A stretch of DNA of 32,000 bases from Caldivirga maquilingensis IC-167 (GCF_000018305.1 NC_009954.1:1560001-1592000), one strand, 5' to 3'. Counted from the stretch's first letter, positions 18,317 through 32,000 are shown. The notes: generated from the sequence alone by a model not told the origin. Made by a program: numbers and translations.

Positions 18317-20131
18317 TTATTCCTTGCTCCTTACAGGTAGGACGATGTAGCTATTGGGTCCCAGATGCAGATTGACTACCGTATCCACCATTCTTGGTAG
18401 GAAGTATACGCCACCAATTGCAAGACGGCTATACATATCATCCTGGGTCCTTATTATGACACCTATCCTGTGCCCCTTCTGGATGACCCATGTTATCGGC
18501 ATTAAGTTGATGTCGTACTTCACCTTCTCTCCCTTCGGTACAGGGACTGGATCCTGGACCTTGTGCACTGGAGCCCATGGCTTTGACTTATTTTCATCAA
18601 TAGCTCTAAAGGAACCCCTGAGCCAGCCCTCTGTCATTAATTGCTTGCTACCGTCTGGGCTTACATCCACTACCGTTATCATCCAGTTTACGTCATCTTG
18701 ATCAATAGTCGCCTCTAAATGTAAGGCGGTTGGTCCTACTATCTCAGTGTCCTCGGTGAATGGATCCGTGTAGTAGTTTAGTGAGTAGACTGTGGGGTCC
18801 TTGAGGGGCATAGGTTGATACAACACGTCAGGTCTTGAATCACTCTCAGGGATAGTGGATAATTTATTCCCCTTCCTTAAGTAGAGGTTAATCCACTTAA
18901 TATCCTTCGGTGGCCAATCATCCTCAAACTTCCACTTATTCACCCCACCCATGAAGATCTTCACCGGTGGCTCATCCATGATGCCGTTGTCTATTCCCTT
19001 CAACCAGTAGTCAAACCACCTTATCATCTCGTATTGCATATGTACGAACGGTCTTGGGAACTCACCAGGGATGAATATGAGGAATTTCTTGTATTTTGAA
19101 CGGACCTTATTGTAAGCCTCAAATCCAGACCAATACACACGTGCCCCTCCACCCCCTGGGGCAGGAACACCGATGTATATTGGGAGTGTTACCTTATCAA
19201 GATTATCATTAACAGGCGTTGGATGAAAAGCTGACATCAGGTAATCAAACAAGATGGGTTCTCTCGGATAAACCAGTGATGATCTAACCTTGGGATGGAA
19301 CTTAATGTCAGGGTGCTCCAGTAACTCCTTAAGTCTCTTTTCAAATTCATCCTTGGGCAATATTTCTGGAGACATCGGTGGACCCCATTGGCGTACCGGC
19401 AACGAGCTATCGTGTATATGGCCACCATGGAATATGCCCGCTAGAGCAAGGTCTATCATCCCTGTAAATGGATCCGCAGGAGGATAGAATGAACCAATCG
19501 GGAACAGTGCAACTAAATGCGGTGGGGGATTATTGGTTGCAATCATGTATTGTGAAAGGGAGTAGGAGCTGGGGCCAATCATCCCCACCTTCCCGTTGCA
19601 CCAAGGCTGCTGTGCAACCCATTCTATGAGGTCGTAAATATCCTCAGGCTTGTGGAGGTCTATCAGAGTACGCGGAGGCCCCCCTTCAGATTTTCCTATC
19701 CCTCTTGGATCCGGTATCACGTAAACATACCCCCTGGAGACGAAGTACTCTATGTCTCCTGCCTCAAGGCTTCCATCCCACCAAGGACTCGTGTAATATG
19801 GTTGAGGAAGGTCTTTAAGCCATAGCACTGTTTCCTGGTTGTCCTTACCCCACATTCCCCATGCAACTAAGCAAGGAAACTTCTCGCCCTCCGCGTCCGG
19901 CAGATAGATATCGACAGCAAGATGCACCCCATCCCGCATCTTTACCATAATATCCTTCAGAATCTTCATCCTGTATTTTGGCGGAGAAACCTCCTCTTTA
20001 ACTATCACGGGGTAACCATCGAAAAGTCTACCCTTTATCTGCGCGTTAGGCGGCAACTTTTCGGGTTCTAGGCTGAATTGATTCGGAGCAATTTTTATTT
20101 CATCAGCCTTGAAAACAGACACAATCGACAT
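18317..20131 (-). CDS. CocE/NonD family hydrolase (X-Pro dipeptidyl-peptidase S15-like alpha/beta hydrolase)
   Basis: 604 aa. The nucleophile elbow is in GKVGMIGPSSYSLSQY (G-x-S-Y), the N-terminal region MRDGVHLAVDIYLP is typical, and there is a C-terminal beta-jelly-roll-sized domain. Confidence 0.7.
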   Translation of the reverse strand: MSIVSVFKADEIKIAPNQFSLEPEKLPPNAQIKGRLFDGYPVIVKEEVSPPKYRMKILKDIMVKMRDGVHLAVDIYLPDAEGEKFPCLVAWGMWGKDNQETVLWLKDLPQPYYTSPWWDGSLEAGDIEYFVSRGYVYVIPDPRGIGKSEGGPPRTLIDLHKPEDIYDLIEWVAQQPWCNGKVGMIGPSSYSLSQYMIATNNPPPHLVALFPIGSFYPPADPFTGMIDLALAGIFHGGHIHDSSLPVRQWGPPMSPEILPKDEFEKRLKELLEHPDIKFHPKVRSSLVYPREPILFDYLMSAFHPTPVNDNLDKVTLPIYIGVPAPGGGGARVYWSGFEAYNKVRSKYKKFLIFIPGEFPRPFVHMQYEMIRWFDYWLKGIDNGIMDEPPVKIFMGGVNKWKFEDDWPPKDIKWINLYLRKGNKLSTIPESDSRPDVLYQPMPLKDPTVYSLNYYTDPFTEDTEIVGPTALHLEATIDQDDVNWMITVVDVSPDGSKQLMTEGWLRGSFRAIDENKSKPWAPVHKVQDPVPVPKGEKVKYDINLMPITWVIQKGHRIGVIIRTQDDMYSRLAIGGVYFLPRMVDTVVNLHLGPNSYIVLPVRSKE

Positions 20132-20377
20132 TACCTCACCTAAATCCTAACACTCTGTGCTTTCTTATAAACCCTGTGCTATTATTAATTCTCTCATGTT
20201 AATGCCATTTCACAGTAAACGGACTTGCATGTCACATTATTGACCAATTTTAATTTTTAATTATCAGCATTATAATTAAGCTAAGTACTCATGCAAGCCA
20301 TTAAGACTTAACCAGTAAGTCCCTGAACCTTAATAATGCTTTCCTGAAGAGTGAGCAGGGTAGGTTCCTACTTTACT

Positions 20378-21568
20378 TCATGGTAAGGGATAGGTGTTAA
20401 GGATTCCTACTACTCCCCCAGTCAGTATCATGCTTATTGTTGTGAAGTAGATTATTGTTCTTAGCCTAGTGTAGGCGTATTGACCCATTATCCTCCTATT
20501 ACTGATTAGTATTCCAATTAGGGTTGCTGGTATTGCTATAACTATTGGTGCCAGGGATAGTAGTGTTAGGGCGAAGTTAAGTAGTGTTGAGTAATTATTA
20601 AGCATTAGTGAAACTATGATCACCGCTGGTACTGATTCAGCGGCATAGATTTTAATTGTGTTTTCGTAATTATTCTTACCCAGGGCCTCCAGTAAACCCC
20701 AGGCGCTGCTTAGGGATACCACCACTAGTGTTAGGAATCCTGCACTAACTAGGGCTAACCCAAACATGTAGTGGACTTTACCTAGGCTACTCAGTAACTG
20801 TATTGGGTCTGTTGGATCAACTCTACCTATTGATGAGCCTATGATTTCAGCGAACACTATTATTAACTCGGTTACAATAGCACCCATTAGCGTCTCCATG
20901 GTGATCCACTTATTCTTCTCATGAATACTCACCCTTATTCCCGGATTCGCATACTTCATTGCCGTTGCTGAGGATTGGTACACTAGCATGCATGGGGGAG
21001 TAACCACAGCACCTATGTTGACTGCCAGGAAGAAGAGGAAGCTCCTTGATGTTGAGAAGTAGAATAAGTCACTACCAGTGAAGTATAGTTTCGGCTCAAC
21101 TATGATTAACGTTGAGGTAATTAGTAGTAGGGAGATTATGATTAAGTACCTCTCAGTGACCTCATACTTCCTCGTCAACACGATGATTATGTGCAGTGTG
21201 AAGAAGGTGAGTAATCCGATAAGCGGGTTAATGCCGATTAAGTAACTCCCAATGGCAATCCCAACGTACTCGGCTAGGTATGTGAAGAAGTCCACTAGGA
21301 ATATTGGAACTATGGAGACTAGGGAAACCCTCCTGGAGTAATACTCCCTGATGAGTTCACCAACACCCTTACCGGTTATAGCCCCCAGTCTCCCAGCAGC
21401 CTCCTGTATTATGAATATTGGGATTGATAACAATAGGACAAACCACATTAACCTATACCCATAAACCTCACCAGTGGATAAACCACCCAGTATGCTGGCT
21501 GCATCAGCATCAGCCATTAAAGCCACCCATGCTGGCCCAAAAAGCCTAATTGCATCCCTTATGCTCAA
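20378..21568 (-). CDS. NRAMP-related metal-ion transporter with non-canonical binding-site motifs
   Basis: FGPAWVALMADADAASILGG...YGYRLMWFVLL aligns without gaps to the NRAMP TM1 region (GPG....DPGN....GY.LLW). About 11 TM helices. The DPGN and MPH motifs are replaced (see findings). Confidence 0.65.
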   Translation of the reverse strand: MSIRDAIRLFGPAWVALMADADAASILGGLSTGEVYGYRLMWFVLLLSIPIFIIQEAAGRLGAITGKGVGELIREYYSRRVSLVSIVPIFLVDFFTYLAEYVGIAIGSYLIGINPLIGLLTFFTLHIIIVLTRKYEVTERYLIIISLLLITSTLIIVEPKLYFTGSDLFYFSTSRSFLFFLAVNIGAVVTPPCMLVYQSSATAMKYANPGIRVSIHEKNKWITMETLMGAIVTELIIVFAEIIGSSIGRVDPTDPIQLLSSLGKVHYMFGLALVSAGFLTLVVVSLSSAWGLLEALGKNNYENTIKIYAAESVPAVIIVSLMLNNYSTLLNFALTLLSLAPIVIAIPATLIGILISNRRIMGQYAYTRLRTIIYFTTISMILTGGVVGILNTYPLP

Positions 21569-21693
21569 TCTAAATCACTACGATACGTAACCACTATGAA
21601 TTTTAAGGTTTCAGGCATAGTTCAAACCCAGGTGACTACCCTAAAAGTAAGTCAATTAAACTAATTCATCAAGGCAAGACCACTAGTTCAGAG

Positions 21694-22983
21694 TCACCTA
21701 ACCCAATAGTGAATTAGCAATGGTGTAATTAACCTCAACCAATGCAGCATAATAAACCAGTAACCAGTATTAACAGTATTCACACGTATAGTGGAGTCAC
21801 TGGGGCTTAGCGTGATTAAGGTGCATGCATTACTCAATACACCCTCACCCAGTAAGCCCCCTAATGGTGTAATCTTAACGTAGGTTAAATTATAGAAGTC
21901 GTAACCCACCAAGTACCCGCCCAGGATGAGTGAACCATTAATTACAGTAATACCAGAGACACCCAATTGCTCATTAAGCAGGGTTACCGGTATTACATTA
22001 CCGTAGGCTGGGTTTATGAAGCCTAGGTTCACGGTTAATTCATAATACATGGGTAAGCATGATGGGTTAATTAATGAGCCATTGGGAAGCATTAGTATTG
22101 GTGAGTAGTAGACTAATGGACCCAGGGGGGCTAGCCTACTAATATTAAATACCCTGTAACCATAATCAGTCTCACCACCAAGCAGGTAATCAACACCAGC
22201 ACTGGTTGAATTAACCAGAACCCCCTTGTAGAATTGATTAAGCGTAATGGTGAAGTACCTTAAGTAACTTGGGAATGGTAGATTATTTAACACCACTGGT
22301 AGTGACGTTACCCTAAATGACGCATTCAAGTCATTACCGAACCAGGAGTAAAAGACCGTGACACCGGGTAGTGGGACACCATAGTATAGTGAACCATTGT
22401 ACAGGTAGTGATGCCACAGGTAATACTTGAAGCCATTAGCCTCAATCAAGTAACCATTAACGCTGGTTAAATTACCCAACACATCACCCAACGACTCACT
22501 ACCAGTTATGAATAAGAACACAGTGTAGTTAAACCCACCCACGGACGCAACAATTGAAACAAGCCAACGACCACTAAGGCTTAATGGCTGAGGCATTAGG
22601 TTAACCGGGTATGTTAAATTAACCACCCACTCAACACCACCCCTTAACCCACTCACTGAAGTAGACTTAAGCAATATTGGGTACTGCATTGAGGTCGCAT
22701 TAGCAATAATTAATGTTAACCTCAAACCAGCCACACCAAGCCATGGAGCCGTAACATTCTCCTCATTAATCAATATGCCGTAGGCTAATGGGTGAGTTAA
22801 CTTCAGTGAATCAATGTAGCTTAATGGCGGTTCACCGTGGGTTAGATTCATTGAAATAATGTAAACCTTACTAACATACACAACGGGCAATGGCGATGAT
22901 GGAACATAAACCGCTAACGTAACTACCGCTAACACTAATAATAAGGTAATGGTAATCAGTATCACTAAGTTACCTGACTCCAT
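21694..22983 (-). CDS. Signal-anchored extracellular protein, function unknown, sequon-rich
   Basis: 429-aa ORF with an N-terminal TM anchor (LVILITITLLLVLAVVTLAV) and many N-x-S/T motifs. No recognisable domain. Confidence 0.5.
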   Translation of the reverse strand: MESGNLVILITITLLLVLAVVTLAVYVPSSPLPVVYVSKVYIISMNLTHGEPPLSYIDSLKLTHPLAYGILINEENVTAPWLGVAGLRLTLIIANATSMQYPILLKSTSVSGLRGGVEWVVNLTYPVNLMPQPLSLSGRWLVSIVASVGGFNYTVFLFITGSESLGDVLGNLTSVNGYLIEANGFKYYLWHHYLYNGSLYYGVPLPGVTVFYSWFGNDLNASFRVTSLPVVLNNLPFPSYLRYFTITLNQFYKGVLVNSTSAGVDYLLGGETDYGYRVFNISRLAPLGPLVYYSPILMLPNGSLINPSCLPMYYELTVNLGFINPAYGNVIPVTLLNEQLGVSGITVINGSLILGGYLVGYDFYNLTYVKITPLGGLLGEGVLSNACTLITLSPSDSTIRVNTVNTGYWFIMLHWLRLITPLLIHYWVR

Positions 22984-23087
22984 AATTATGGAGTATTAAT
23001 TCAGTTAAAAACTTTATTCAAACCCAGCACCAATATTAAAGCTTTACAACACCATGCAGGCTTAACACTATTAAAGCAACATGCGTA

Positions 23088-23382
23088 CTTTCTAATCCCT
23101 TTTGGGATTTTCATGAAAAAGCCATAATTGTTACAGGGAAAAAGGAAAATAACTTTCTAATCCCTTTTGGGATTTTCGGATGCATTCCCCTACTCCATAA
23201 CAACCGTGAGGGGTTTGATTAATCTTTCTAATCCCTCTTGGGATTTTCTTAATTATTAAGTCTTTATCCTTAATTTTTTAATTCGAATTCCCTTTCTAAT
23301 CCCTCTTGGGATTTTCTGGATTGATTTAAGCGGTAACGGTTACAATGCAGTATTCGTCTTTCTAATCCCTTTTGGGATTTTC
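23088..23382 (-). CRISPR. CRISPR array 1: five 25-bp repeats and four spacers, transcribed on the minus strand away from the leader at 23383
   Basis: Repeats CTTTCTAATCCC[T/C]TTTGGGATTTTC at 23088, 23153, 23224, 23292 and 23358. Spacers are 40, 46, 43 and 41 bp. The reverse complement ends in ATTAGAAAG, resembling the ATTGAAAG 8-nt crRNA handle source of crenarchaeal repeats, which sets the orientation. Confidence 0.95.
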
Positions 23383-23590
23383 TGAGCTATCAGCTTTTTT
23401 AGGTTTTTTAAGTTTTTCTTCATGGTTTGCTTTGTTTATCATTGGCACAACCATTCCGCTATTCCTCACTCCCACATCCCTGTGCTGATGATGCAATGAA
23501 GCCCTCTAATGGTTGTGCCAATTGAAAGAAATGAAGAATGATAATGAAACTGTGCCGATGAAAAAATATAGAGTATATATTTGACTCAAT
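23383..23590 (-). promoter_or_regulatory. CRISPR leader 1 (AT-rich, about 200 bp)
   Basis: It directly abuts repeat 5. Its reverse complement aligns by eye along most of its length with 28300..28508 upstream of array 2. Confidence 0.75.
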
Positions 23591-23726
23591 GAAAGAAGAC
23601 AGGAATCACAAACAAGAATAAAACCACAAACCAACACAACCCCCGTCAACCCCCGTGTTCCCCAGGTGGTTGTGGGATTTCATAAGGAGTTCCACTGAGG
23701 CTGGTTCATATATTGAGACTAGGGGT

Positions 23727-23751
23727 ATTTCTAATCCCTCTTGGGATTTTC
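23727..23751 (-). CRISPR. Orphan CRISPR repeat followed by an approximately 40-bp leader-like fragment
   Basis: ATTTCTAATCCCTCTTGGGATTTTC has one mismatch to the repeat. The next bases, taaactattggttttaagatttttaagtttttct, resemble the repeat-proximal leader tgagctatcagcttttttaggttttttaagtttttct. Confidence 0.8.
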
Positions 23752-24067
23752 TAAACTATTGGTTTTAAGATTTTTAAGTTTTTCTCTATTAGTTGTTCAC
23801 AAGGGTAGGCATCAATTAGCTCAGGTTGTGGCGTATGCGTTGGCTGTTGAGGAGACGCTTAAGGTTACTGTTGATGAGGCGGTAATGATTAGTGTTAATG
23901 GTGGTTTAACTAGGTTTAAGATAACCCCATGGTTAAGGAATTGGATTATTAATGAGTTAGGTAGTTTAAGGAGTATGATCAATAGGCAGGAGTTACCGAA
24001 GCCTACTATTGATAAGGCTAAGTGCTCAGCATGCTTCTATAGGAGTATTTGCTTAAAGTACGGTTAA
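23741..24067 (+). pseudogene. cas4: 5'-truncated cas4 remnant; only the C-terminal part looks like Cas4
   Basis: HQLAQVVAYALAVEETL matches the RecB-nuclease Q-h-x-x-Y motif, and the C-terminal KCSACFYRSIC matches the Cas4 C-x2-C-x5-C Fe-S cysteines. The N-terminal roughly 20 codons of the ORF are encoded by the orphan repeat and leader-like DNA. The N-terminal Cys and the D..ExK nuclease motifs are absent. Confidence 0.6.
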
Positions 24068-24085
24068 GTATTTATTACGAGTAAA

Positions 24086-24973
24086 GTGAATACACTTATG
24101 GTTACTTTACATAAAGTAACCATAGCCTTCACCCCAAGTATTGATGTACCCTTCATTAATTGGCATGGCTTAATATTAAGTGCATTAGTCACTGAGGCAT
24201 TGATTAATGGTGGATTCGCCATTGATCATAATGCCAGGAAACACCTATACATTACACCAATACTGAATCAGAAGGATGAACCAATACTGGGTAGAGTGTT
24301 GAAAGGAGGCTTGGAGTATAAGTTTAACGTAACCGTAGTTAATGAGGAGGCTAGGGATGCATTAGTGAATTGGTTCGTTAAGAAGAACGGCTTCATTCTA
24401 AACGGCGTCAACGCATCATTAACATCAGTAAGCATAACGGAGGAGAAGGTTGAGATAAGCAGTGGAGGTAAGGGTAATGAGTCAAGTAAGGTTATTGTAA
24501 CGTGGAATGTGGATTACGGCCCAACCGTGTTTAGGTTTAGGGCCAGTAACGTACTTTATCCAAGCCCAAGGATGCTCATCTTCAGTATGGCTAGGAGGTT
24601 GAGTGATGTACTTACGAATAATGAGATAGTTATTAGGAGGGGTAATGTGGAGTACGTGGGTGTAATAGGCAGTATTAACCTTAAGGATATTGCCAGGGAA
24701 TTAGCATTAAACACTGAGCTAATTAAGTTCACTGGATTTAAGTTAATTAAGTTAAGCCTTGGGAGTAGGGGTAATGTTGAGAGGAGGGTACCTGCATTCA
24801 CGGCTAAGGCAAGCTACTTAACACTAGTGGATAAGTCAACGTTACCCATATTTAGGGAGATGATTAAAGTAGCCAACATGACTGGTGTAGGTAAGAATAC
24901 ATCAATAGCATTAGGGTACGTGAAGACAAGGATAGAGGGCATTAGGGAAATTAAGGGGAGCAGTAATCAATAA
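24086..24973 (+). CDS. cas6: Cas6-like CRISPR repeat endoribonuclease
   Basis: The C-terminal glycine-rich loop GVGKNTSIALGYV resembles the Cas6 G-h-G-x(5-7)-G-h-G signature. The size fits a double-ferredoxin protein and the gene lies inside the CRISPR locus. The likely true start is ATG 24098, about 25 nt after a TATTTATTA box. Confidence 0.6.
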   Translation: MNTLMVTLHKVTIAFTPSIDVPFINWHGLILSALVTEALINGGFAIDHNARKHLYITPILNQKDEPILGRVLKGGLEYKFNVTVVNEEARDALVNWFVKKNGFILNGVNASLTSVSITEEKVEISSGGKGNESSKVIVTWNVDYGPTVFRFRASNVLYPSPRMLIFSMARRLSDVLTNNEIVIRRGNVEYVGVIGSINLKDIARELALNTELIKFTGFKLIKLSLGSRGNVERRVPAFTAKASYLTLVDKSTLPIFREMIKVANMTGVGKNTSIALGYVKTRIEGIREIKGSSNQ

Positions 24974-25032
24974 TTCATCGATAATTCCTTACGCCTATCC
25001 GCACCTCGGCTTGGGAAGCATGCTTAATTTAA

Positions 25033-26394
25033 TTAATCCACGCAGCAGCTCATCTTAGTGATGTCTCTATAGAAGGCTTGTGCAGCTAACTTCAGTGACT
25101 CAGCCATTGTCGGGAAGACGTGTATTGTGTCTATTAGGTCATTGATTGTTGCCTTAAGCCTAATGGCTAATGCGGCTTCATTTATGAATTCCGCCGCGTT
25201 CTCACCCATGGCGTGGACGCCAATTATCCTCCCACTGCCCTTCTCAATAATCATTTTAACTAAACCATTAGTGTCACCTAGTATGTGTGCCTTAGCCACA
25301 TTATCCATGAAGACAACCCTATAATCCACATCAATACCCATGGCAACAGCCTCAGCAACAGTTAACCCAACCCTAGCTAAATTAGGCTTAGTGAATATGG
25401 CTTGAGGCACAGCAAGCATGTCAATTCTCCTATGGGCATTAAGCACAGCGTTATCAACAGCAACCACACCCTGCTTACCGGCCAGGGCCTCAAGCATGGG
25501 TCCGCCTAATACATCACCAGCCGCGTAAACCCTTGGGTTTGTGGTCCTTAACTCATCATCAACCAGGATACCGCCTTTCTCACTTAGTTTAATACCAGCC
25601 TCATTAAGGTTAAGGTCAACATTAGGCCTCCTACCCATGGCTACAAGGATTTCATCAGCCTCCAACTCACCCTTATCAGTCACAACAACCTTACCCTCAA
25701 CACCCTGCTTAACCTCCAGCACCCTAGTACCTGTAAGCACCACTACGCCACTCTGCTCAAGCACCTGCCTAATGCCCAGTGATATTTCAGGTTCCCAATC
25801 CGGTATGAGTACTTGACTCCTCTGAACCACGGCTACATCAACACCAAGCATCCTATACATTTGCGCAAACTCCAATGCCTGCGCCCTACCACCGAGCACT
25901 ATCAGTGACCCAATTCTACGCTGTGGGTTAAGGGCCTCCACATTTGTCCAGTAACCCACCTCCCTTAATCCCTTTATGTTGGGTATGTTTGGTGATGAAC
26001 CCGTGGCCACTATGAACCTCTCACCCTCAATAACCCTACCATTAACCTTAACTGAATTAGGGGAGGTGAAGTACGCCCTACCCTCAATCAACTCCACGTC
26101 ATACTTAGCTAACACATCCTCGTACTTAAGCTTCCTAAGCTTATTCACAATATCCAGTTCATGCTTAAAGGCGCTCATGTAATCCCAGTTAAGGCTTGGT
26201 TCAAAACCCTTCGCGTAACCGTAAAGTTCACCAATCCTGAGGACTGTCTTTGATGGTACGCAACCCACATTAACGCACGTCCCACCCAATGGTCCATAAC
26301 CAATCAATGTGGGTTTAATACCGAGTTCATTAGCCCTTATCAATGCTGCGAAGCCAGCTGCCCCATAACCAATAATAACCAGTTCCTTAGCCAT
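25033..26394 (-). CDS. merA: Mercuric reductase (core enzyme without an NmerA domain)
   Basis: The FAD motif IIGYGAAG, the redox-active GGTCVNVGCVPSK that is characteristic of MerA, and the C-terminal vicinal cysteine pair (KMSCCVD) that distinguishes MerA from other pyridine nucleotide-disulfide oxidoreductases. Confidence 0.85.
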   Translation of the reverse strand: MAKELVIIGYGAAGFAALIRANELGIKPTLIGYGPLGGTCVNVGCVPSKTVLRIGELYGYAKGFEPSLNWDYMSAFKHELDIVNKLRKLKYEDVLAKYDVELIEGRAYFTSPNSVKVNGRVIEGERFIVATGSSPNIPNIKGLREVGYWTNVEALNPQRRIGSLIVLGGRAQALEFAQMYRMLGVDVAVVQRSQVLIPDWEPEISLGIRQVLEQSGVVVLTGTRVLEVKQGVEGKVVVTDKGELEADEILVAMGRRPNVDLNLNEAGIKLSEKGGILVDDELRTTNPRVYAAGDVLGGPMLEALAGKQGVVAVDNAVLNAHRRIDMLAVPQAIFTKPNLARVGLTVAEAVAMGIDVDYRVVFMDNVAKAHILGDTNGLVKMIIEKGSGRIIGVHAMGENAAEFINEAALAIRLKATINDLIDTIHVFPTMAESLKLAAQAFYRDITKMSCCVD

Positions 26395-26471
26395 AAAACC
26401 ACCACGGATTCATTACTGGGAATAAGGATGAGTCATTTTGATTCACAGTTAATCACTCACCGTGAGGTGAT

Positions 26472-26639
26472 TTAAACACCCCCATGCCTCTGTTCAAAGG
26501 CATTAGCGCAGTGCTCGCAACAGAAGTAATGCCTCTCACCGTTTATTACACGCACATAGGCTCTCTCCAAGGTTATAGGCATACCGCAGTTCTCGCACCT
26601 TAATCCACCCTGTGTACTCGTATTATTCCTCAGCCTCAT
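26472..26639 (-). CDS. merH: TRASH-domain metallochaperone-like protein (MerH-like), 55 aa, absent from the ORF track
   Basis: Hand translation gives MRLRNNTSTQGGLRCENCGMPITLERAYVRVINGERHYFCCEHCANAFEQRHGGV. C15-x2-C18-x21-C40-x3-C44 fits the TRASH pattern C-x2-C-x19-22-C-x3-C. The gene lies immediately upstream of merA on the same strand, with an ATTTAAATA TATA box about 25 nt upstream. Confidence 0.65.
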   Translation of the reverse strand: MRLRNNTSTQGGLRCENCGMPITLERAYVRVINGERHYFCCEHCANAFEQRHGGV

Positions 26640-26659
26640 AACGGGCACTCAGCCTCAGT

Positions 26660-26720
26660 ATTTAAATTATTTTTTCTTCATATGAAAATTTATTCATATG
26701 TTAAAAATCTTTAAAAGCTA
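26660..26720. promoter_or_regulatory. Divergent mer promoter region: two TATA boxes flanking an 8-bp inverted repeat
   Basis: ATTTAAATA (26660-26668) serves the minus-strand merH-merA genes and TTTAAAAG (26710-26717) serves the plus-strand membrane gene. Between them lies CATATGAA-N6-TTCATATG (26679..26700). Confidence 0.45.
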
Positions 26721-26738
26721 AGCAATTACTCAACGGTG

Positions 26739-27260
26739 ATGCTGAGGCCAGGTAACCAAACCTTCAGTGAGATTCAAACCGTGGCCAAGGTTCTGGTAAC
26801 GGTCATTGGTAACCCAAGGTACACGATTGTTTTCATAGCCTCCTTCCTACTACTCTTTACAGCATTCTACTACCTGTATACCACGGGGCATGTGGGTTAC
26901 ATCCTCCTAAGAAACTACTACGTATACTACGACTTGGCTTCATCATTAGTCGTATCCCTATTGAACAGTATGGTTATGGTAATGGGTCTTTACGGTTTGA
27001 GACTTAGATTAAGTGGCTTAAGTATACCTTCCATAGCTTTAGGATTAGCGCCAACCGCATGCTGCGCCCCAACCGTGGCAGCATTAGTAACCTCAGTGGT
27101 GGCTTCAATGGCTGGTTCATCAACAGCATTACTAACCGTGGGTAAGCTTCAGGGTGTATTAGGCGTCTATAACCCAATCTTCGTGGCATTATCCATAGCA
27201 ATAGCTGTTGTGGGGCTTAATAATGTGGCAAAGAACCTAGTGTGCTCATGCAGTAGGTGA
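26739..27260 (+). CDS. Four-TM membrane protein with an intramembrane vicinal cysteine pair (PTACCAPT) and a C-terminal CSC; candidate Hg(II) or thiol-disulfide transporter
   Basis: 174-aa ORF (track start GTG 26736, ATG 26739). The CC pair flanked by prolines sits in a predicted TM helix, and the second cysteine cluster VCSCSR lies at the C-terminus. The gene is divergent from merH-merA. Confidence 0.55.
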   Translation: MLRPGNQTFSEIQTVAKVLVTVIGNPRYTIVFIASFLLLFTAFYYLYTTGHVGYILLRNYYVYYDLASSLVVSLLNSMVMVMGLYGLRLRLSGLSIPSIALGLAPTACCAPTVAALVTSVVASMAGSSTALLTVGKLQGVLGVYNPIFVALSIAIAVVGLNNVAKNLVCSCSR

Positions 27261-27817
27261 GAGGAATGAGGACGCGTACTGTAATCCTAGTAATCGCATC
27301 TATAGTAGTCCTTTCAACAGTAGTATACTTATTCACTAGACCAACAAGGACTACAGGTGTTTCAGTGGGTTATTATGCACCAGACTCTAGCTTTGAGTTA
27401 ATCAATGGCACAAGCGTTAAACTATATGACTTCCTAAACCATGGTCACTACGTTCTAGTTTACTTCGTATCCACCTGGTGCAGTGACTGCGCCATTGGGT
27501 TAATAATGCTTAGCCATAGGCTGGAGCCCATACTACAGTCACATAATGTGATTGTCCTAGTTCTTGAGAATTATAATGACTTAGGTTACCAGGGTGAACC
27601 CGTTAATGAGTTTGTTAGCTACTTTGCAGGTAATTCATCAAAGTACTTTACCGTGGGTATTGCAAGCCTTAAGATGACTGAGACCTATAATCCAGAGGGT
27701 TACCCAGAAATCTACTATTTAATAGCACCCAATGGTAAGATAATTTACGAGAACACGGACCTAGCCGGCACCTATAATTCCTTAATCAGCATCGTAAATG
27801 GGCTTGGGAACTCATAA
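27257..27817 (+). CDS. Membrane-anchored TlpA/ResA-like thioredoxin-fold protein
   Basis: An N-terminal TM anchor is followed by YAPDSSFELINGTSVKLYDFLNHGHYVLVYFVSTWCSDC (W-C-x-x-C redoxin motif). GTGA overlap with the upstream membrane gene. Confidence 0.7.
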   Translation: MRGMRTRTVILVIASIVVLSTVVYLFTRPTRTTGVSVGYYAPDSSFELINGTSVKLYDFLNHGHYVLVYFVSTWCSDCAIGLIMLSHRLEPILQSHNVIVLVLENYNDLGYQGEPVNEFVSYFAGNSSKYFTVGIASLKMTETYNPEGYPEIYYLIAPNGKIIYENTDLAGTYNSLISIVNGLGNS

Positions 27818-28174
27818 GCCACGATTTAAATTAACACTCACCTTCTCCTCATTAATTACATCACACGCTAATATCGACCTACTATTCCTCATGGCATGCT
27901 CAATGGCTAGTTTCACAATACTAGCCACGGCATCATTTGCTATTGAGTAGTATGAGTACTTACCCCTCCTCTCCACCTTAACCACACCGCAATTCCTTAA
28001 GCAAGCCAAGTGATGGGAGATTAGGGATTGAGACCTCCCAAGAGCCTTAGTAATCTCCTGAACAGAGGATGAACCATGATTAAGGAGAAAAAGCACAATC
28101 TCAAGCCTACTCCTATCTGATAATGCGGTAAAGAACATCTCCAACGCCATCAACAACGGCTCCCTCCCACTCAT
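27812..28174 (-). CDS. ArsR/SmtB-family metalloregulator, candidate regulator of the mer cluster
   Basis: ALSDRSRLEIVLFLL...SVQEITKALGRSQSLISHHLACLRNCGVV is the canonical ArsR HTH. Cysteines occur in and after the recognition helix (C-x3-C) plus one C-terminal Cys. Confidence 0.8.
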   Translation of the reverse strand: MSGREPLLMALEMFFTALSDRSRLEIVLFLLNHGSSSVQEITKALGRSQSLISHHLACLRNCGVVKVERRGKYSYYSIANDAVASIVKLAIEHAMRNSRSILACDVINEEKVSVNLNRGL

Positions 28175-28299
28175 TAAACCATGAGAACCTTAGCATTTAA
28201 TAAATCTTTCGCACCGCCACACACAACACCCAACGAAGACCTACAGTAATCTAAAAGCAGTACAAAACATATTCCTCCTTCTAATCCCTTTAGAATCTC

Positions 28300-28508
28300 A
28301 ATAAAATTAAATATATACTCTATATATTATCATCGGCACAGTTTCATTATCATTCTTCATTTCTTTCAATTAGCACAACCATTGGGGGGCTTCATTACAC
28401 CATCAGCACAGGAATGTGAGAGCACAGAATAACAGAATGGTTGTGCCAATGATAAACAAAGCAAACCATGAAGAAAAACTTAAAAAACCTAAAAAAGCTG
28501 ATAACACA
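28300..28508 (+). promoter_or_regulatory. CRISPR leader 2 (inverted copy of leader 1)
   Basis: It abuts repeat 1 of array 2 and aligns with the reverse complement of 23383..23590. For example, aatggttgtgccaatgataaacaaagcaaaccatgaagaaaaacttaaaaaacctaaaaaagctgata is shared. Confidence 0.75.
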
Positions 28509-29276
28509 GAAAATCCCAAAAGGGATTAGAAAGCCGCAGACGTTGCTCAGCTTGTTTAACAGTTTAGCGAAGCCGCGAAAATCCCAAAAGGGATTAGAAA
28601 GGATAAGGCCACGGTTTCAAGTACATTGAGGAATCGTTACAATGAAAATCCCAAAAGGGATTAGAAAGTGTATGATAATTCCACCTTAGTGCTAGTTCCC
28701 CATGAACCTAGAAAATCCCAAAAGGGATTAGAAAGGGCGTATAATTGAGTACCGTTACTGAACATGAACTTGAGGAAAATCCCCAAAAGGGATTAGAAAG
28801 TGTAGTAACGTGGAAATAAAGGTACACTTGTAGCAGGTAGAAAATCCCAAAAGGGATTAGAAAGTTGTGGTCGTAGAAGTCGAAACCTAACCCTATTAAG
28901 TCTCGAAAATCCCAAGAGGGATTAGAAAGTTTACAAAATCCTCAAATCCCTCAAATTTTTCCATAGGGAATCAAGGAAAATCCCAAGAGGGATTAGAAAG
29001 TAATTACAGCTGTGAACTCAGGAAACATAAAATATATATCACTGAAAATCCCAAGAGGGATTAGAAAGGCTTATGATGATTGCCGTTGATGGTAAGACAT
29101 AATTAATCACTGAAAATCCCAAGAGGGATTAGAAAGTTATCACTACTCCAATGCAATGAACCCAGCAAGTCTTCATACTCATGAAAATCCCAAGAGGGAT
29201 TAGAAAGATAACTTATGCTAGGTATTTCAATTACCCAATGGTCATGCCTATGTAAATCCCAAAAGGAATTAGAAGG
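28509..29276 (+). CRISPR. CRISPR array 2: 12 repeats (the last degenerate) and 11 spacers, transcribed on the plus strand
   Basis: Repeats GAAAATCCCAA[A/G]AGGGATTAGAAAG at 28509, 28577, 28644, 28711, 28775 (26 bp, extra C), 28840, 28905, 28976, 29044, 29112 and 29183. The degenerate terminal repeat GTAAATCCCAAAAGGAATTAGAAGG is at 29252. Spacers are 43, 42, 42, 39, 39, 40, 46, 43, 43, 46 and 44 bp. Confidence 0.95.
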
Positions 29277-29301
29277 GTATTAAATCGGCTAGGATGTTGG
29301 T

Positions 29302-30198
29302 TTATGATTGTAGTGTGTTTATTAGTTTCTGGATCCATTCTCTGGGTTTTATGATGCCTTCTTCGTTAGTTACTAGACCTCTTTCTATTAGGTCGTTTAC
29401 GTCTATTCCCATTTGCTTTAAGATGTTTTGCAGTGTTCCGTTGCCTATTATTTTTAATGCCTCTATGTATTTTTCCTGTATTGTTAGTGGTAGTTTCGGT
29501 AATTCCACTATGCTTTTGAATGATTCATGCATGTAGATTATTTTCCAAGCACCGGTTAATTGGGCTACTAGGGCTATATACGCTGTTTCTGGTTTATAGC
29601 CTGCTGTGGCATTGACTACTACCTTGTACCCACTACGTGTTTTGTTTATTATTAGTCTGGCGAATTTATTCACTAGTTCTATTAATCCTTCGTTAAACCA
29701 GTTTATGTCTCTTCCAAGATCCTTTACGACTATTGGTTCATCAACCTTAGGTTTAATGTTGATTCCAGCCTTCTGCATGAATTCATTTCCGTAACGGTCT
29801 AGGTACTCCTTGATTACCTGTGCGCAGAATTTCCCCGTGCCTGTATCCGTGGGGTATAGGTAAATCTCCAACTCCTCAAACTGCCTGTATGGGAAATCCA
29901 GGAGAAACCTTATCAATGTATTTAACTCTGCACTAGTCCCCTCTGGGTTATTCCTCACGAACTCTATAGTCTTCTCGAAAAACGAATCACCCCTATGCCT
30001 CATGTGTTCAATCTTCTCCTGAAGCGGATCATCAGGGCCTAGTTTACTCAGTTTTCCCTCCTTTAACTTTGCCTGTATCTCTTCAGGAATCCCCGTGAGG
30101 TCTATGGTACTCACACCCCTTTCTATGTCATTTCTTATAGTAGCTTCCATGTTAGATAGTATGCTTGTACCTACGGTGCTTAGAACCGCTAACTTCAC
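29302..30198 (-). CDS. CARF-domain protein (Cas_APE2256-like) with a probable C-terminal winged-helix domain
   Basis: The MKLAVLSTVGTSILSN N-terminus, SAELNTL and VVVNATAGYKPE (the CARF N-x-T-G-G-x-K-like motif). The C-terminal roughly 60 aa (IEALKIIGNGTLQNILKQMGIDVNDLIERGLV) look like an HTH. The GTG start is preceded by an ATAAATTAAA TATA box at about 25 nt. Confidence 0.6.
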   Translation of the reverse strand: MKLAVLSTVGTSILSNMEATIRNDIERGVSTIDLTGIPEEIQAKLKEGKLSKLGPDDPLQEKIEHMRHRGDSFFEKTIEFVRNNPEGTSAELNTLIRFLLDFPYRQFEELEIYLYPTDTGTGKFCAQVIKEYLDRYGNEFMQKAGINIKPKVDEPIVVKDLGRDINWFNEGLIELVNKFARLIINKTRSGYKVVVNATAGYKPETAYIALVAQLTGAWKIIYMHESFKSIVELPKLPLTIQEKYIEALKIIGNGTLQNILKQMGIDVNDLIERGLVTNEEGIIKPREWIQKLINTLQS

Positions 30199-30336
30199 AG
30201 TGTTACTGTAGTATACTTTAATTTATTAGTTTTTCCTTTATGACTATAATGTTCTTTACCCTTATACTCAAGATATTGATTTAACGTAAAACTTAGTAAT
30301 TTAACATTAATAAAGAAGACGCGTGCAATACCTTAG
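30199..30336. promoter_or_regulatory. Divergent promoter region between the CARF-wHTH gene and csx1
   Basis: TTAATAAA (30307-30314) lies about 27 nt upstream of csx1 ATG 30337. On the opposite strand, ATAAATTAAA (about 30219-30228) lies about 25 nt upstream of GTG 30198. Both genes look leaderless. Confidence 0.4.
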
Positions 30337-32000
30337 ATGAGTAGTGGAGATTCCGAGGAAAGAGTCTTAGTACTGGCACCTTGGGGTTTACCCACTCTTT
30401 GGGATGAAGTTAATTACGTAATCCCCAGGGTTAGTGAGAGTGGTGGGAAATTATGCGTTAGGCCCATTAATATTGAGTGGAATGATGTGGATAAAGTTAA
30501 GAGTTATACTTCATTGGCTGGAGTCCTACGTTACATCACTAATGCTGGCCATAAAGGCTTTATTGACGTGATAATCATGGGCTTGGATACATTGGCATTC
30601 CCAGATACGCGTAGTCAAAGTGGAAACTGCAACGTAGTGGGGATTCTTAGTGATTTTACCAATACTCTACGTAATGGTAAAGTTAACTACCGTGATATTG
30701 AGAACACAGCTTATTCACTCCTTAAGAATTGTATTTCTCAATACCTTGGTGGTTTCAATAGTAAAGCTGATAAAATCAATATTGAGGTCGAGATACTGCC
30801 CGGTACAGGAACCTACAGAGCCGGTAACTTTAATGCAAGGTTTATGGGCGGCATCAACAATCTGAACTTCACCATGCTATATAAGCTATACAATAAGGTT
30901 AGATACAATAAGTACAGTGCCATTATTATCGACATAACACATGGTGTGAATTACTTACCCATGATAACGTACATGGCTGCTCAGTTAATAGCCAAGTACC
31001 TGAGTGCCAGGGATAATAAGGATATATGCTTAATAACCTTTAATGCAGACCCAATCTCAAGACAAAAAACAGAAGCCACACAGGAGCGAAGACTCAACAT
31101 AATCGAGATGCAAAACATAAGTATTGAACCTCATGAATTCCTCAAAGAGTTAACTGGTAGGTTAAATAAGGAGAAGATCTTTAGAATTGTGAGAACTAAT
31201 CATGATAAGGATAAGATAAACAAATTAAATAAGTTGAATAATAATTATGAAGATATACGACGCCGCTTAAATCCATCGAGGATTACCACATCTCTTGAGT
31301 ATGGTTTTGCACTTTACCTAGTTACTTATCTACGCAAAAATAACCTAACACATGTGAAGGATCTGGAGGAGTTATCAAGGAATATTTCGAATTTATGCGA
31401 TGAAATTTACAACTATATGAATGAGGCAGTTGATATTAGTATTAATAATAATGAGGTTCTCATTTCGAGGATTTACGATTTTGAGACTTCACCGCTGTTA
31501 TTATCCATGGCTTTTGACGTGGTGAGAAACAGGGTCATTAACGTATTGAACCTTGATCAATTAATGGATAATGAGGGTGGTATAGATATTGAATATCTAT
31601 TGAAGATACCGGTTAGCAGTGTAGCTGACACAATACTTAGTAATGAGGTTGATTCAATTAAGCGTGCAGCTGAGTTATTTAGGGATGTTGCTGTTAACTT
31701 ACTGGGTATGAATAAAGGAATCCTGGGTGGTTATGTGAAATACGGAAATATCCATGATTTTGTGAATAAATCCATCATAGACATAGGGCGTAGGTCTAAT
31801 GATATTCGTGAGGAGATTAAGAATTATTCATGCGATAACCAAGATTCACATGATGATTCCGAGTGTAGGTTCAACGATAGGAATTTTATTGCTCATGCTG
31901 GTCTTGAGAGAAATATCACATGTATTAAAATCAGTGGCGATAAAGTATTCATTAAGTATATTGATAAGTGCTTCGAAGATATTGATAAGCACATGGAGAA
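30337..32000 (+). CDS. csx1: Csx1-family CARF-HEPN protein (DxTHG-motif family), 3'-partial, absent from the ORF track
   Basis: The hand-translated frame is open from ATG 30337 to the window end (554 codons, no stop). It has an N-terminal RVLVLAPWGLP strand, the DITHGVN DxTHG motif (30931-30945) and the HEPN R-N-x-x-x-H motif RNFIAHAGLE (31879-31896). Confidence 0.8.
   Translation, partial: MSSGDSEERVLVLAPWGLPTLWDEVNYVIPRVSESGGKLCVRPINIEWNDVDKVKSYTSLAGVLRYITNAGHKGFIDVIIMGLDTLAFPDTRSQSGNCNVVGILSDFTNTLRNGKVNYRDIENTAYSLLKNCISQYLGGFNSKADKINIEVEILPGTGTYRAGNFNARFMGGINNLNFTMLYKLYNKVRYNKYSAIIIDITHGVNYLPMITYMAAQLIAKYLSARDNKDICLITFNADPISRQKTEATQERRLNIIEMQNISIEPHEFLKELTGRLNKEKIFRIVRTNHDKDKINKLNKLNNNYEDIRRRLNPSRITTSLEYGFALYLVTYLRKNNLTHVKDLEELSRNISNLCDEIYNYMNEAVDISINNNEVLISRIYDFETSPLLLSMAFDVVRNRVINVLNLDQLMDNEGGIDIEYLLKIPVSSVADTILSNEVDSIKRAAELFRDVAVNLLGMNKGILGGYVKYGNIHDFVNKSIIDIGRRSNDIREEIKNYSCDNQDSHDDSECRFNDRNFIAHAGLERNITCIKISGDKVFIKYIDKCFEDIDKHME

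What the first reader, a model, noticed from the sequence alone, without database searches (positions are those of the whole stretch)
23088..29276. Inverted twin CRISPR arrays whose core lacks cas1/cas2 and carries a mercury-resistance cluster instead
Two arrays share the same 25-bp repeat and are transcribed outward from inverted leaders of about 200 bp that are nearly identical (23383-23590 versus 28300-28508). In Sulfolobales and Thermoproteales, this twin-array layout normally brackets the adaptation cassette (cas1, cas2, cas4, csa1). Here the 4.9-kb core holds only a truncated cas4, a cas6 and five mercury or thiol-related genes. Long inverted repeats flanking a metal-resistance cargo also resemble a composite mobile unit. 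Either the adaptation module was replaced by recombination, or leader and array units mobilised the cargo. I do not recall either arrangement being a described configuration.
Basis: partly seen in the sequence, partly recalled or inferred. Interest (0 to 1): 0.75.

Follow-up and report, generated by a model that had tools for sequence, protein, structure and literature searches.

The report
Decayed CRISPR twin-array locus holding mercury operon
Two outward-facing CRISPR arrays in Caldivirga maquilingensis really do flank a mercury-resistance operon, but the layout is best read as an ordinary type I-A adaptation locus that lost csa1-cas1-cas2 and half of cas4 in one deletion, not as a new mobile element.

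Summary
There are two arrays of the same 25-nt repeat, one with 5 repeats and one with 12. Their inward-lying leaders are inverted copies, 187 of 208 nt identical with no gaps. The core holds a cas4 fragment, cas6 and a five-gene mer cluster. The window is Caldivirga maquilingensis: Cas6 and MerA are 100% identical to its proteins.

New evidence explains the missing adaptation genes. An orphan repeat (23727-23751) is followed by a 35-nt leader stub, and that stub is fused directly to the 3' half of cas4. The three closest full-length Cas4 relatives are each the last gene of a csa1-cas1-cas2-cas4 operon. In one of them (L011) that operon follows a leader and an array with a 21/25-identical repeat in the same orientation. 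A single deletion of about 2.7 kb would turn that layout into this one.

The mer genes form a conserved five-gene block. The same block, in the same order, sits in Vulcanisaeta among housekeeping genes with no CRISPR repeats nearby. It lies about 1 kb from the deletion scar, so its arrival was a separate event.

I found no transposase, integrase or tRNA, so nothing supports a composite mobile unit. I could not test whether cas1/cas2 exist elsewhere in the genome. Interest is modest: this is locus decay plus an unusual passenger.

The parts
23088..23382 (-). Left CRISPR array: 5 repeats of 25 nt and 4 spacers of 40-46 nt. From the leader outwards the repeat variants are AAAA, AAGA, AAGA, AAAA, AAAA. 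It has no degenerate terminal repeat.
23383..23590 (-). Left leader. It holds the promoter-like box AAAAACTTAAAAA at 23405-23417 and a one-mismatch copy at 23396-23408. It also has an internal 14-nt inverted repeat, TTGGCACAACCATT / AATGGTTGTGCCAA.
23591..23726 (.). A 136-bp stretch between the left leader and the orphan repeat. It resembles nothing else in the window. It may be the distal part of a leader of about 344 bp.
23727..23751 (-). Orphan CRISPR repeat, 23 of 25 matches, AAGA variant, in the same orientation as the left array.
23752..23785 (-). Leader stub: a copy of the first ~35 nt of a leader. It includes an exact AAAAACTTAAAAA box at 23771-23783. It ends abruptly where Cas4 homology begins.
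   Evidence: (D7)
23741..24067 (+). cas4 3' fragment. Cas4 homology starts at about nt 23792, which is residue 18 of the ORF. The first ~17 codons, including the TTG start, are read from the orphan repeat and leader stub. It retains QxxxY and the C-terminal CxxCxxxxxC. It lacks the first Cys and the motifs in the N-terminal half.
24086..24973 (+). cas6, apparently intact. It matches PF10040 at E = 1.3e-12. Among 5.8 billion proteins the only hit, 100% identical, is the C. maquilingensis protein.
25033..26394 (-). merA, mercury(II) reductase. It scores 576 bits against TIGR02053 (cut-off 454). The CxxxxC active site and the C-terminal CC pair are both present.
26472..26648 (-). 58-aa TRASH/YHS-domain protein encoded upstream of merA. 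Its position and domain match MerH of Sulfolobus.
26736..27260 (+). 174-aa membrane protein with a vicinal Cys pair (TACCAP) and a C-terminal CSC. It matches no family. It is conserved by position in the Vulcanisaeta mer block, at 26% identity.
27257..27817 (+). Membrane-anchored thioredoxin-like protein (WCSDC motif; weak AhpC-TSA/Redoxin/ResA-like matches). It is 52-56% identical to the Vulcanisaeta counterpart.
27812..28174 (-). ArsR/SmtB metalloregulator. It is 63% identical over its full length to the arsR of the Vulcanisaeta mer block, so it is a mer regulator and not a Csa3 remnant.
28276..28300 (-). Degenerate repeat relic with a 13-nt exact core, TTCTAATCCCTTT. It abuts the inner end of the right leader but has the orientation of the left array. 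Together with the 7 nt before it, it most resembles the junction of the left array's first repeat and first spacer.
   Evidence: (D5)
28301..28508 (+). Right leader. It holds the promoter-like box at 28474-28486 and a one-mismatch copy at 28483-28495.
28509..29276 (+). Right CRISPR array: 12 repeats and 11 spacers. Repeats 1-6 are the AAAA variant (repeat 5 carries an extra C), repeats 7-11 are AAGA, and repeat 12 is degenerate.
29302..30198 (-). CARF protein of the Cas_APE2256 family, the family that includes ring nucleases. This is a type III accessory gene.
30337..31998 (+). csx1 (CARF plus HEPN). It runs off the window end and is 562 aa in full. It is followed by NurA and a HerA-like ATPase in locus L009.

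Best explanation
This is a decayed type I-A style adaptation locus of Caldivirga maquilingensis.

Inferred ancestral layout: array <- leader | csa1-cas1-cas2-cas4 -> ... | leader -> array.

One deletion of about 2.7 kb ran from position +35 of a leader to about codon 109 of cas4. It removed csa1, cas1, cas2 and the catalytic half of cas4. What remains is an orphan repeat, a 35-nt leader stub that keeps its promoter-like box, and a dead cas4 3' half. A second, intact array and leader (the present left array) lies just outside the scar.

Separately, a self-contained five-gene mercury-resistance block came to lie between cas6 and the right leader. The block is arsR | thioredoxin-like, membrane protein | TRASH, merA. 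It is inherited as a unit in the Caldivirga/Vulcanisaeta lineage.

How it works now (inferred). Both arrays are still transcribed outward from promoters next to their first repeats. The adjacent Cas6 cuts the transcripts, and the crRNAs serve effector complexes encoded elsewhere; type III accessory genes csx1, a CARF gene, NurA and HerA lie just to the right. New spacers can be added only if Cas1-Cas2 is supplied from another locus. The mer block works independently as an ArsR-controlled Hg(II) detoxification unit.

Shown: the anatomy, the truncation, the scar, the gene order in relatives, and the conservation of the mer block. Inferred: the order of events, array transcription, and supply of the adaptation proteins in trans.
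For: 1. The scar is precise. The orphan repeat 23727-23751 and leader stub 23752-23785 match the left and right repeat-leader junctions up to ...AAGTTTTTCT and no further. Cas4 homology begins at ORF residue 18, about nt 23792. The ORF start codon lies inside the repeat.
2. The fragment covers only the C-terminal half of the Cas4 models and of a solved Cas4. No trace of the N-terminal half exists anywhere in the window (tblastn best E = 0.07).
3. An exhaustive HMMER search of 1.84 billion representatives gave full-length relatives of 183-207 aa that match only at about 95-200. These carry the N-terminal Cys and the D/ExK region that the fragment lacks.
4. All three closest full-length relatives (P0123, P0125, P0128) are the last gene of csa1-cas1-cas2-cas4.
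5. In L011 that operon is preceded by a leader of about 410 nt and an 18-repeat array. Its 25-nt repeat is 21/25 identical to this one and in the same orientation as the orphan repeat. It is followed by a convergent csa3-like wHTH gene. [quoted passage not shown]
6. The mer block has the same five genes in the same order and orientation in Vulcanisaeta souniana (L005) and in a metagenome contig (L004). There it is flanked by pirin, fumarase and rhodanese genes and no CRISPR repeats are nearby. Identities are MerA 72-76%, ArsR 63%, Trx 52-56%, TRASH 56-58% and membrane protein 26%. DNA homology starts at the merA stop codon and ends inside arsR, so the block boundaries coincide with gene boundaries.
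7. The leaders are best conserved at the repeat-proximal ~70 nt and the distal ~85 nt, and carry the conserved promoter-like box. cas6 is intact.
8. The junctions are reproduced in independent assemblies.
Against: - No close relative of this locus could be found. The repeat, Cas6 and the cas4 fragment are singletons in all collections searched. The ancestral state is therefore inferred from relatives at only 38-47% Cas4 identity.
- The tandem arrangement (left array with full leader, then orphan repeat with leader stub) needs an extra assumption: either two tandem arrays or a duplication.
- The degenerate repeat at 28276-28300 and the mosaic of repeat variants show that further rearrangements took place which the model does not resolve.
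- Nothing shows how or when the mer block arrived. It could even predate the CRISPR modules at this site.
- Transcription, processing and the presence of cas1/cas2 elsewhere in the genome were not testable here.
Confidence: 0.72

Rival explanations
1. Composite mobile unit. The two inverted leader-plus-repeat arms act like the ends of a composite transposon, or as portable homology for recombination, and moved the mer cargo into or out of this site.
For: A 233-nt inverted repeat at 91% flanks a 4.7-kb core that carries a metal-resistance block. The mer block sits in a different genomic context in Vulcanisaeta, so it has moved in at least one lineage. Repeat relics at 23727 and 28276 show that recombination occurred at repeats.
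Against: - No transposase, integrase, IS end or tRNA lies in or next to the unit.
- The arms are exactly a leader plus first repeat, which arrays of one family ordinarily share.
- The arms are 10% diverged, so this is not a recent mobilisation.
- The Vulcanisaeta and Thermocladium copies of the mer genes have no CRISPR repeats or leader-like DNA beside them.
- The unit also contains cas6 and a cas4 remnant whose relatives belong natively between a leader and an array.
Confidence: 0.06
2. The twin arrays never bracketed an adaptation cassette here. The orphan repeat, leader stub and cas4 3' half are a fragment that was translocated or duplicated from the real adaptation locus elsewhere in the genome, for example by recombination between leaders.
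For: The orphan repeat and stub lie in tandem with a complete leader (spacing 366-369 nt). That pattern could result from an ectopic recombination product. cas6 is known to occur apart from adaptation genes (PMC3973734). The rest of the genome could not be examined.
Against: The fragment is joined to the stub at a point that is not homologous to any leader, which indicates an illegitimate deletion-type junction. Copying would need the same deletion to have occurred first at the donor site, or two breakpoints instead of one. The fragment has no near-identical partner among 5.8 billion proteins, where the only hit is itself. However, a full-length paralogue more distant than the shared-word threshold of that search would have been missed.
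Confidence: 0.15
3. Assembly artefact. The inverted 233-nt arms and the repeats caused a mis-join that placed unrelated mer genes between two arrays.
For: Repeats and inverted duplications are classic causes of mis-assembly. The right-hand junction (arsR to right leader) was not covered by any independent contig I could retrieve.
Against: Three independent Logan assemblies reproduce 23612-26181 exactly, covering the inner end of the left leader, the orphan repeat, cas4', cas6 and merA. Two reproduce 29107-32000. The proteins are 100% identical to those of a finished 2.08-Mb genome.
Confidence: 0.02

Closest known systems
Type I-A adaptation locus bracketed by two divergent arrays, as in Sulfolobus islandicus REY15A (acas operon csa1-cas1-cas2-cas4 with an inversely oriented csa3a, PMC4333418) and Thermoproteus tenax (cas genes between CRISPR 5 and 6, PMC3189178).
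   Same: Two arrays of one repeat family with homologous leaders facing inward. cas4 sits in the position and orientation of the last gene of the adaptation operon. Repeats are 25 nt with a ...GAAAG 3' end.
   Different: csa1, cas1, cas2, the 5' half of cas4 and csa3 are absent. cas6 and a mer operon occupy the remaining space. An extra orphan repeat and leader stub are present.
Metagenomic type I-A locus L011 (ena:ERZ6864471 c_000002236973), which encodes the closest full-length Cas4 (P0123, 47% identity).
   Same: Its repeat CTTTCTATTCCCTTGTGGGAGTATC is 21/25 identical and in the same orientation relative to cas4. The order is array, leader, csa1-cas1-cas2-cas4.
   Different: L011 is intact and is preceded by csa2 and cas3 interference genes. 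Its leader is not alignable with this one and lacks the AAAAACTTAAAAA box. It has no mer genes.
Archaeal mer operon of Sulfolobus solfataricus (ArsR-type MerR, TRASH-domain MerH, MerA), as summarised in PMC3466566.
   Same: An ArsR-family regulator, a small TRASH protein encoded immediately upstream of merA, and a MerA without an N-terminal HMA domain.
   Different: Two extra, divergently transcribed genes: a Cys-rich membrane protein and a membrane-anchored thioredoxin-like protein. These are shared with Vulcanisaeta. The block is located inside a CRISPR locus.
Pyrobaculum CRISPR leaders and arrays (PMC3396285).
   Same: The exact promoter-like element AAAAACTTAAAAA lies just upstream of the first repeat. 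The repeats have an A-rich core flanked by a short palindrome. Repeat variants are mixed within one array ('DR mixing').
   Different: A different genus and a different repeat sequence. In this window the element also survives in a 35-nt leader stub attached to a single orphan repeat.
Orphan or stand-alone CRISPR arrays and degenerate cas loci in general.
   Same: Arrays are kept without adjacent cas1/cas2. A processing gene (cas6) is encoded separately from the adaptation and interference genes, as noted for archaea in PMC3973734.
   Different: Here the deletion that created the orphan state can be read directly, at a junction between a leader stub and mid-cas4.

Membership tests
CRISPR array (Rfam CRISPR-DR17 repeat family) | Regularly spaced, near-identical direct repeats separated by unique spacers of similar length | tested here: met
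   5 and 12 repeats of 25 nt with spacers of 39-46 nt, all unique. 15 repeats reach the Rfam gathering score.
CRISPR array (Rfam CRISPR-DR17 repeat family) | A leader with a promoter at one end and repeat decay at the other end | tested here: met
   208-nt homologous leaders carry the AAAAACTTAAAAA box 22 nt from the first repeat. The degenerate terminal repeat at 29252-29276 is seen in the right array only.
CRISPR array (Rfam CRISPR-DR17 repeat family) | Transcription and processing into crRNAs | not testable with these tools
   No RNA data are available. An intact cas6 lies adjacent.
Type I-A twin-array adaptation locus | Two arrays in inverted orientation with leaders facing the inter-array region | tested here: met
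Type I-A twin-array adaptation locus | cas1 and cas2 (with csa1 and cas4) encoded between the leaders | tested here: not met
   Only the 3' half of cas4 is present. There are no Cas1, Cas2 or Csa1 matches among the ORFs of the core.
Type I-A twin-array adaptation locus | A Csa3-type CARF-wHTH regulator next to the cassette | tested here: not met
   The wHTH gene next to the right leader is a full-length 120-aa ArsR. It is orthologous to the arsR of the Vulcanisaeta mer block (63% identity) and has no CARF domain.
Cas4 (PD-(D/E)xK nuclease with a 4-Cys cluster) | A full-length domain of about 180-210 aa with the N-terminal Cys and the D/ExK catalytic motifs | tested here: not met
   The fragment matches only model positions 81-159 of 160 and 96-179 of 180, and scores below the TIGR00372 cut-off (51 against 65 bits). 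Relatives are 183-207 aa and match only in their C-terminal halves.
Cas4 (PD-(D/E)xK nuclease with a 4-Cys cluster) | The C-terminal QxxxY and CxxCxxxxxC motifs | tested here: met
   QLAQVVAY and CSACFYRSIC are present and align to the Cas4 chain 8d3l and to P0123.
Archaeal mer operon | MerA with the CxxxxC redox site and a C-terminal Cys pair, scoring above the equivalog cut-off | tested here: met
   TIGR02053 scores 576 bits against a 454-bit cut-off. GTCVNVGC and a C-terminal CC are present.
Archaeal mer operon | An ArsR-type regulator and a TRASH-domain protein linked to merA | tested here: met
   The linkage is conserved in Vulcanisaeta and Thermocladium.
Archaeal mer operon | Hg(II)-responsive expression and Hg(II) reduction | not testable with these tools
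   This requires an experiment.
Composite transposon or other mobile element | A transposase or integrase gene, or IS copies forming the arms | tested here: not met
   No such ORF or Pfam match lies in 20000-32000. The arms are leader plus repeat.
Composite transposon or other mobile element | Target-site duplication, or an empty site in relatives | not testable with these tools
   The outer ends are CRISPR arrays, so a duplication cannot be read. No relative with the flanking genes was found.

The most novel reading that the evidence does not exclude
CRISPR repeats and leaders may themselves have served as the recombination substrates that rebuilt this locus. Possible products are an inversion of a leader between inverted repeats, of which the oppositely oriented repeat relic at 28276-28300 would be a fossil, and capture of the mer block. 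As a consequence, the Hg-responsive ArsR promoter region would now abut and influence the right leader, tying crRNA output or locus stability to metal stress.
Probability: 0.05. Interest if true: 0.6.

Novelty: new member of a known kind. Interest (0 to 1): 0.28.

Why it matters
The locus gives a clean natural example of how a type I-A adaptation module is lost while its arrays, leaders and cas6 persist. The deletion endpoints are readable to within a few bases, from leader +35 to mid-cas4. That makes C. maquilingensis a candidate for asking whether arrays can be maintained or extended by Cas1-Cas2 supplied in trans. It also shows that a promoter-like leader box known from Pyrobaculum extends to Caldivirga.

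The mer finding is a side benefit. A conserved five-gene archaeal mer block, with a putative membrane thiol pair and a thioredoxin-like partner, has not been covered in the reviews I could read.

None of this changes how CRISPR or mer systems are thought to work.

Tried and rejected
Searches that found nothing:
- Genome contigs: the exact repeat gave 0 matches. Cas6 relatives gave none.
- Metagenome contigs: a relaxed repeat pattern gave 0 matches. The Nramp flank gene gave none.
- Viral contigs: the first 26 nt of the leader-proximal spacers R1 and L1, and the repeat itself, gave 0 matches.
- Exact-sequence look-ups of MerA and ArsR found nothing on record.
- Word-indexed homology searches with the cas4 fragment and with Cas6 returned only the C. 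maquilingensis proteins themselves.
- Literature searches for Caldivirga cas1/cas4/CRISPR content returned nothing useful. Makarova 2015 is not held. The supplement of Vestergaard 2014 is not held. I therefore could not establish whether cas1/cas2 exist elsewhere in this genome.

Ideas considered and rejected:
- The ArsR gene as a Csa3 remnant. It is a full-length orthologue of the Vulcanisaeta mer regulator.
- cas4' as a naturally short family. Its relatives are full-length.
- Leader homology extending into the core. It is not above shuffles.
- Self-targeting spacers. There are none.
- A strongly structured leader RNA. The z-scores are only -1.4 and -2.6.
- Foreign base composition of the core. 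merA is 47-49% GC, within the range of other genes in the window.

Full report
**Identity of the window.** The Cas6 ORF and MerA are 100% identical to NCBI proteins of Caldivirga maquilingensis, and the cas4 fragment is 99% identical. All three proteins are recorded on a 2,077,567-bp contig. The public collections I could scan do not contain this genome or any close relative of this locus. The exact repeat, a relaxed repeat pattern, Cas6 and the flanking Nramp gene gave no hits in genome or metagenome contigs. The comparative evidence therefore comes from more distant relatives.

**Checking the observation.** The left array (23088-23382) has five 25-nt repeats. The right array (28509-29276) has twelve, and its last repeat is degenerate. 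All good repeats reach the gathering score of Rfam CRISPR-DR17. The 15 spacers are unique and have no other match in the window.

The two leaders, 23383-23590 and the reverse complement of 28301-28508, share 187 of 208 identical positions without a gap. Similarity ends there: the sequences beyond the inner leader ends are no more alike than shuffles (292 of 500).

Outward transcription rests on four points:
- The leaders lie on the inner side of each array.
- The degenerate repeat is at the far end of the right array.
- In the outward orientation the repeat ends in ...ATTAGAAAG.
- The exact motif AAAAACTTAAAAA lies 22 nt upstream of each first repeat on the outward strand (5 matches with up to one mismatch, 0.14 expected).

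That motif is the promoter-like element reported as ultra-conserved in all 37 arrays of six Pyrobaculum genomes (PMC3396285).

- a cas4-like ORF
- cas6
- merA (TIGR02053, 576 bits against a cut-off of 454)
- a 58-aa TRASH protein
- a 174-aa Cys-rich membrane protein
- a thioredoxin-like protein
- an ArsR/SmtB regulator

Independent Logan assemblies of three sequencing runs reproduce window 23612-26181 and 29107-32000 exactly.

At 23727-23751 there is a sixth, orphan repeat (23 of 25 matches) in the orientation of the left array. It is followed by a copy of the first ~35 nt of the leader, up to ...AAGTTTTTCT at 23785. That copy includes an exact AAAAACTTAAAAA box at 23771-23783.

Cas4 homology begins a few bases later, at ORF residue 18, about nt 23792. 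The ORF's TTG start and first ~17 codons are simply the repeat and leader stub read in frame.

**The cas4 ORF is truncated.**
- It matches only the C-terminal half of Cas4: Pfam PF01930 positions 81-159 of 160, TIGR00372 positions 96-179 of 180 (51 bits, below the 65-bit cut-off), and residues 114-199 of the 218-aa Cas4 in PDB 8d3l.
- An exhaustive HMMER search of 1.84 billion representative proteins found 56 relatives. The full-length ones are 183-207 aa and align only over about residues 95-200.
- Those relatives carry the N-terminal Cys and the D/ExK region that is missing here.
- No remnant of that half is detectable anywhere in the window.

The fragment is therefore truncated, not a member of a short family.

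**What stood upstream of cas4.** The three closest full-length relatives are P0123 (47% identity), P0125 (46%) and P0128 (38%). Each is the last gene of csa1-cas1-cas2-cas4.

In the longest contig, L011, this operon is preceded by a leader of about 410 nt and an 18-repeat array. The repeat, CTTTCTATTCCCTTGTGGGAGTATC, is 21/25 identical to the one here and lies in the same orientation relative to cas4 as the orphan repeat does. Its degenerate repeats are at the far end. The operon is followed by a convergent wHTH gene, and csa2, cas3' and cas3'' lie upstream of the array.

This is also the published S. islandicus arrangement, with the acas operon csa1-cas1-cas2-cas4 and an inversely oriented csa3a (PMC4333418). 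It agrees with T. tenax too, where cas1-5 lie between CRISPR 5 and 6 (PMC3189178).

In L011 coordinates, a single deletion from leader +35 to cas4 codon ~109 spans about 2.7 kb. It reproduces window 23727-24067. I take this as the best-supported explanation for the missing adaptation genes.

**The mer genes.** The same five genes occur in the same order and orientation in Vulcanisaeta souniana (L005, 8143-11266) and in a metagenome contig (L004, 6860-9976). Both copies are flanked by pirin, fumarase, rhodanese and DsbH-like genes, with no CRISPR repeats in 12-21 kb.

Identities to the window proteins:

| Protein | Identity to window |
|---|---|
| MerA | 72-76% |
| ArsR | 63% |
| Thioredoxin-like | 52-56% |
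| TRASH | 56-58% |
| Membrane protein | 26% |

DNA similarity starts at the merA stop codon and ends inside arsR, so the block is bounded by its own genes. Thermocladium has only arsR-TRASH-merA.

The block is therefore a conserved functional unit of this lineage, and in Caldivirga it lies between cas6 and the right leader. It starts about 1.2 kb from the deletion scar and is separated from it by cas4' and an intact cas6. 'Replacement' of the adaptation genes by mer is thus not what the sequence shows; the two are separate events.

The ArsR gene next to the right leader occupies the place where csa3 would be. It is nevertheless a full-length orthologue of the mer regulator and has no CARF domain.

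**Mobility.** I found no transposase, integrase, IS end or tRNA in or beside the unit. Base composition is not aberrant. The inverted arms are 10% diverged and consist exactly of the leader plus first repeat. The mer block elsewhere carries no leader-like or repeat-like DNA. The composite-element reading therefore has no positive support, although the absence of close relatives prevents an empty-site test.

**Remaining oddities.**
- A degenerate repeat with a 13-nt exact core abuts the inner end of the right leader at 28276-28300. It has the orientation of the left array. Together with the 7 nt before it, it most resembles the junction of the left array's first repeat and first spacer.
- The left array lacks a degenerate terminal repeat. 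It mixes the AAAA and AAGA repeat variants out of order. The right array changes cleanly from AAGA (old) to AAAA (new).
- Such 'DR mixing' was ascribed to recombination between arrays in Pyrobaculum (PMC3396285).

These features show that several recombination events have reshaped the locus, including possible inversions between the oppositely oriented arrays. I cannot order them.

**Likely function today (inferred).**
- Both arrays keep a conserved leader, the promoter-like box and an adjacent intact cas6.
- To the right lie a CARF gene of the APE2256 family, csx1 and, beyond the window, NurA and a HerA-like ATPase. These are known CRISPR accessory genes (PMC3973734).
- The arrays probably still supply crRNAs to effector complexes encoded elsewhere.
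- New spacers could be added only by Cas1-Cas2 from another locus. Whether one exists could not be tested here.

**Verdict.** The locus is a decayed member of the known twin-array type I-A layout, with an unusually legible deletion scar and an unusual but self-contained passenger operon. I rate interest at about 0.28.

Noticed in passing
L007 1716-6201 and L008 3-8631 (Thermocladium sp. contigs): In Thermocladium the arsR-TRASH-merA operon lies one gene (a DegT-type aminotransferase) away from a type III-B cassette with Cmr2, Cmr6, Cmr5 and Cmr4. Two of the three related genera examined therefore have mer genes close to CRISPR-Cas genes. This could be old synteny or coincidence within variable regions.
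   Followed up: partly
window 26472-27817; L004 7242-8585; L005 8530-9869: The Caldivirga/Vulcanisaeta mer block has a TRASH gene plus two divergent genes. One is a membrane protein with a vicinal CC in a predicted membrane segment and a C-terminal CSC. The other is a membrane-anchored thioredoxin-like protein. A 2012 review states that TRASH is linked to mer only in Sulfolobus and that mer transporters are absent from Archaea (PMC3466566). This pair could be an undescribed archaeal Hg(II) uptake and handling module.
   Followed up: partly
window 23439-23452 / 23507-23520 and 28371-28384 / 28439-28452: Each leader contains a 14-nt inverted repeat (TTGGCACAACCATT ... AATGGTTGTGCCAA; one mismatch in the right leader) about 55 nt apart. 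Most of the leader-to-leader differences fall between these arms. The fold z-scores are only -2.6 and -1.4. It may be a protein-binding site or a leader RNA hairpin.
   Followed up: partly
window 23771-23783 (minus strand): The 35-nt leader stub next to the orphan repeat keeps an exact copy of the promoter-like box. It could still drive transcription through the orphan repeat and into the left leader and array.
   Followed up: no
L009 3-2727 (about 0.1-2.8 kb beyond the right end of the window): csx1 is followed by a NurA gene and a HerA-like ATPase gene. This pair is listed as a CRISPR-associated accessory pair in archaea (PMC3973734).
   Followed up: partly
L005 9904-11266 (Vulcanisaeta souniana JCM 11219 draft): MerA residues 1-38 and 37-453 match in two different reading frames, and the gene is annotated as only 421 aa. 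There is a frameshift or sequencing error near the redox-active CxxxxC region.
   Followed up: no
window 13567-13668: Imperfect tandem repeats with periods of 18, 24 and 39 nt encode the Thr/Val/Ser-rich linker near the C-terminus of a 720-aa extracellular solute-binding protein (PF00496). This is probably an O-glycosylated stalk.
   Followed up: no
window 24086-24973: This Cas6 has no relative detectable by the word-indexed search of 5.8 billion proteins other than itself. It matches the Cas6 models only weakly: PF10040 at 48.7 bits, and TIGR01877 at 29 bits, below its cut-off. It is a very divergent, lineage-specific Cas6.
   Followed up: no
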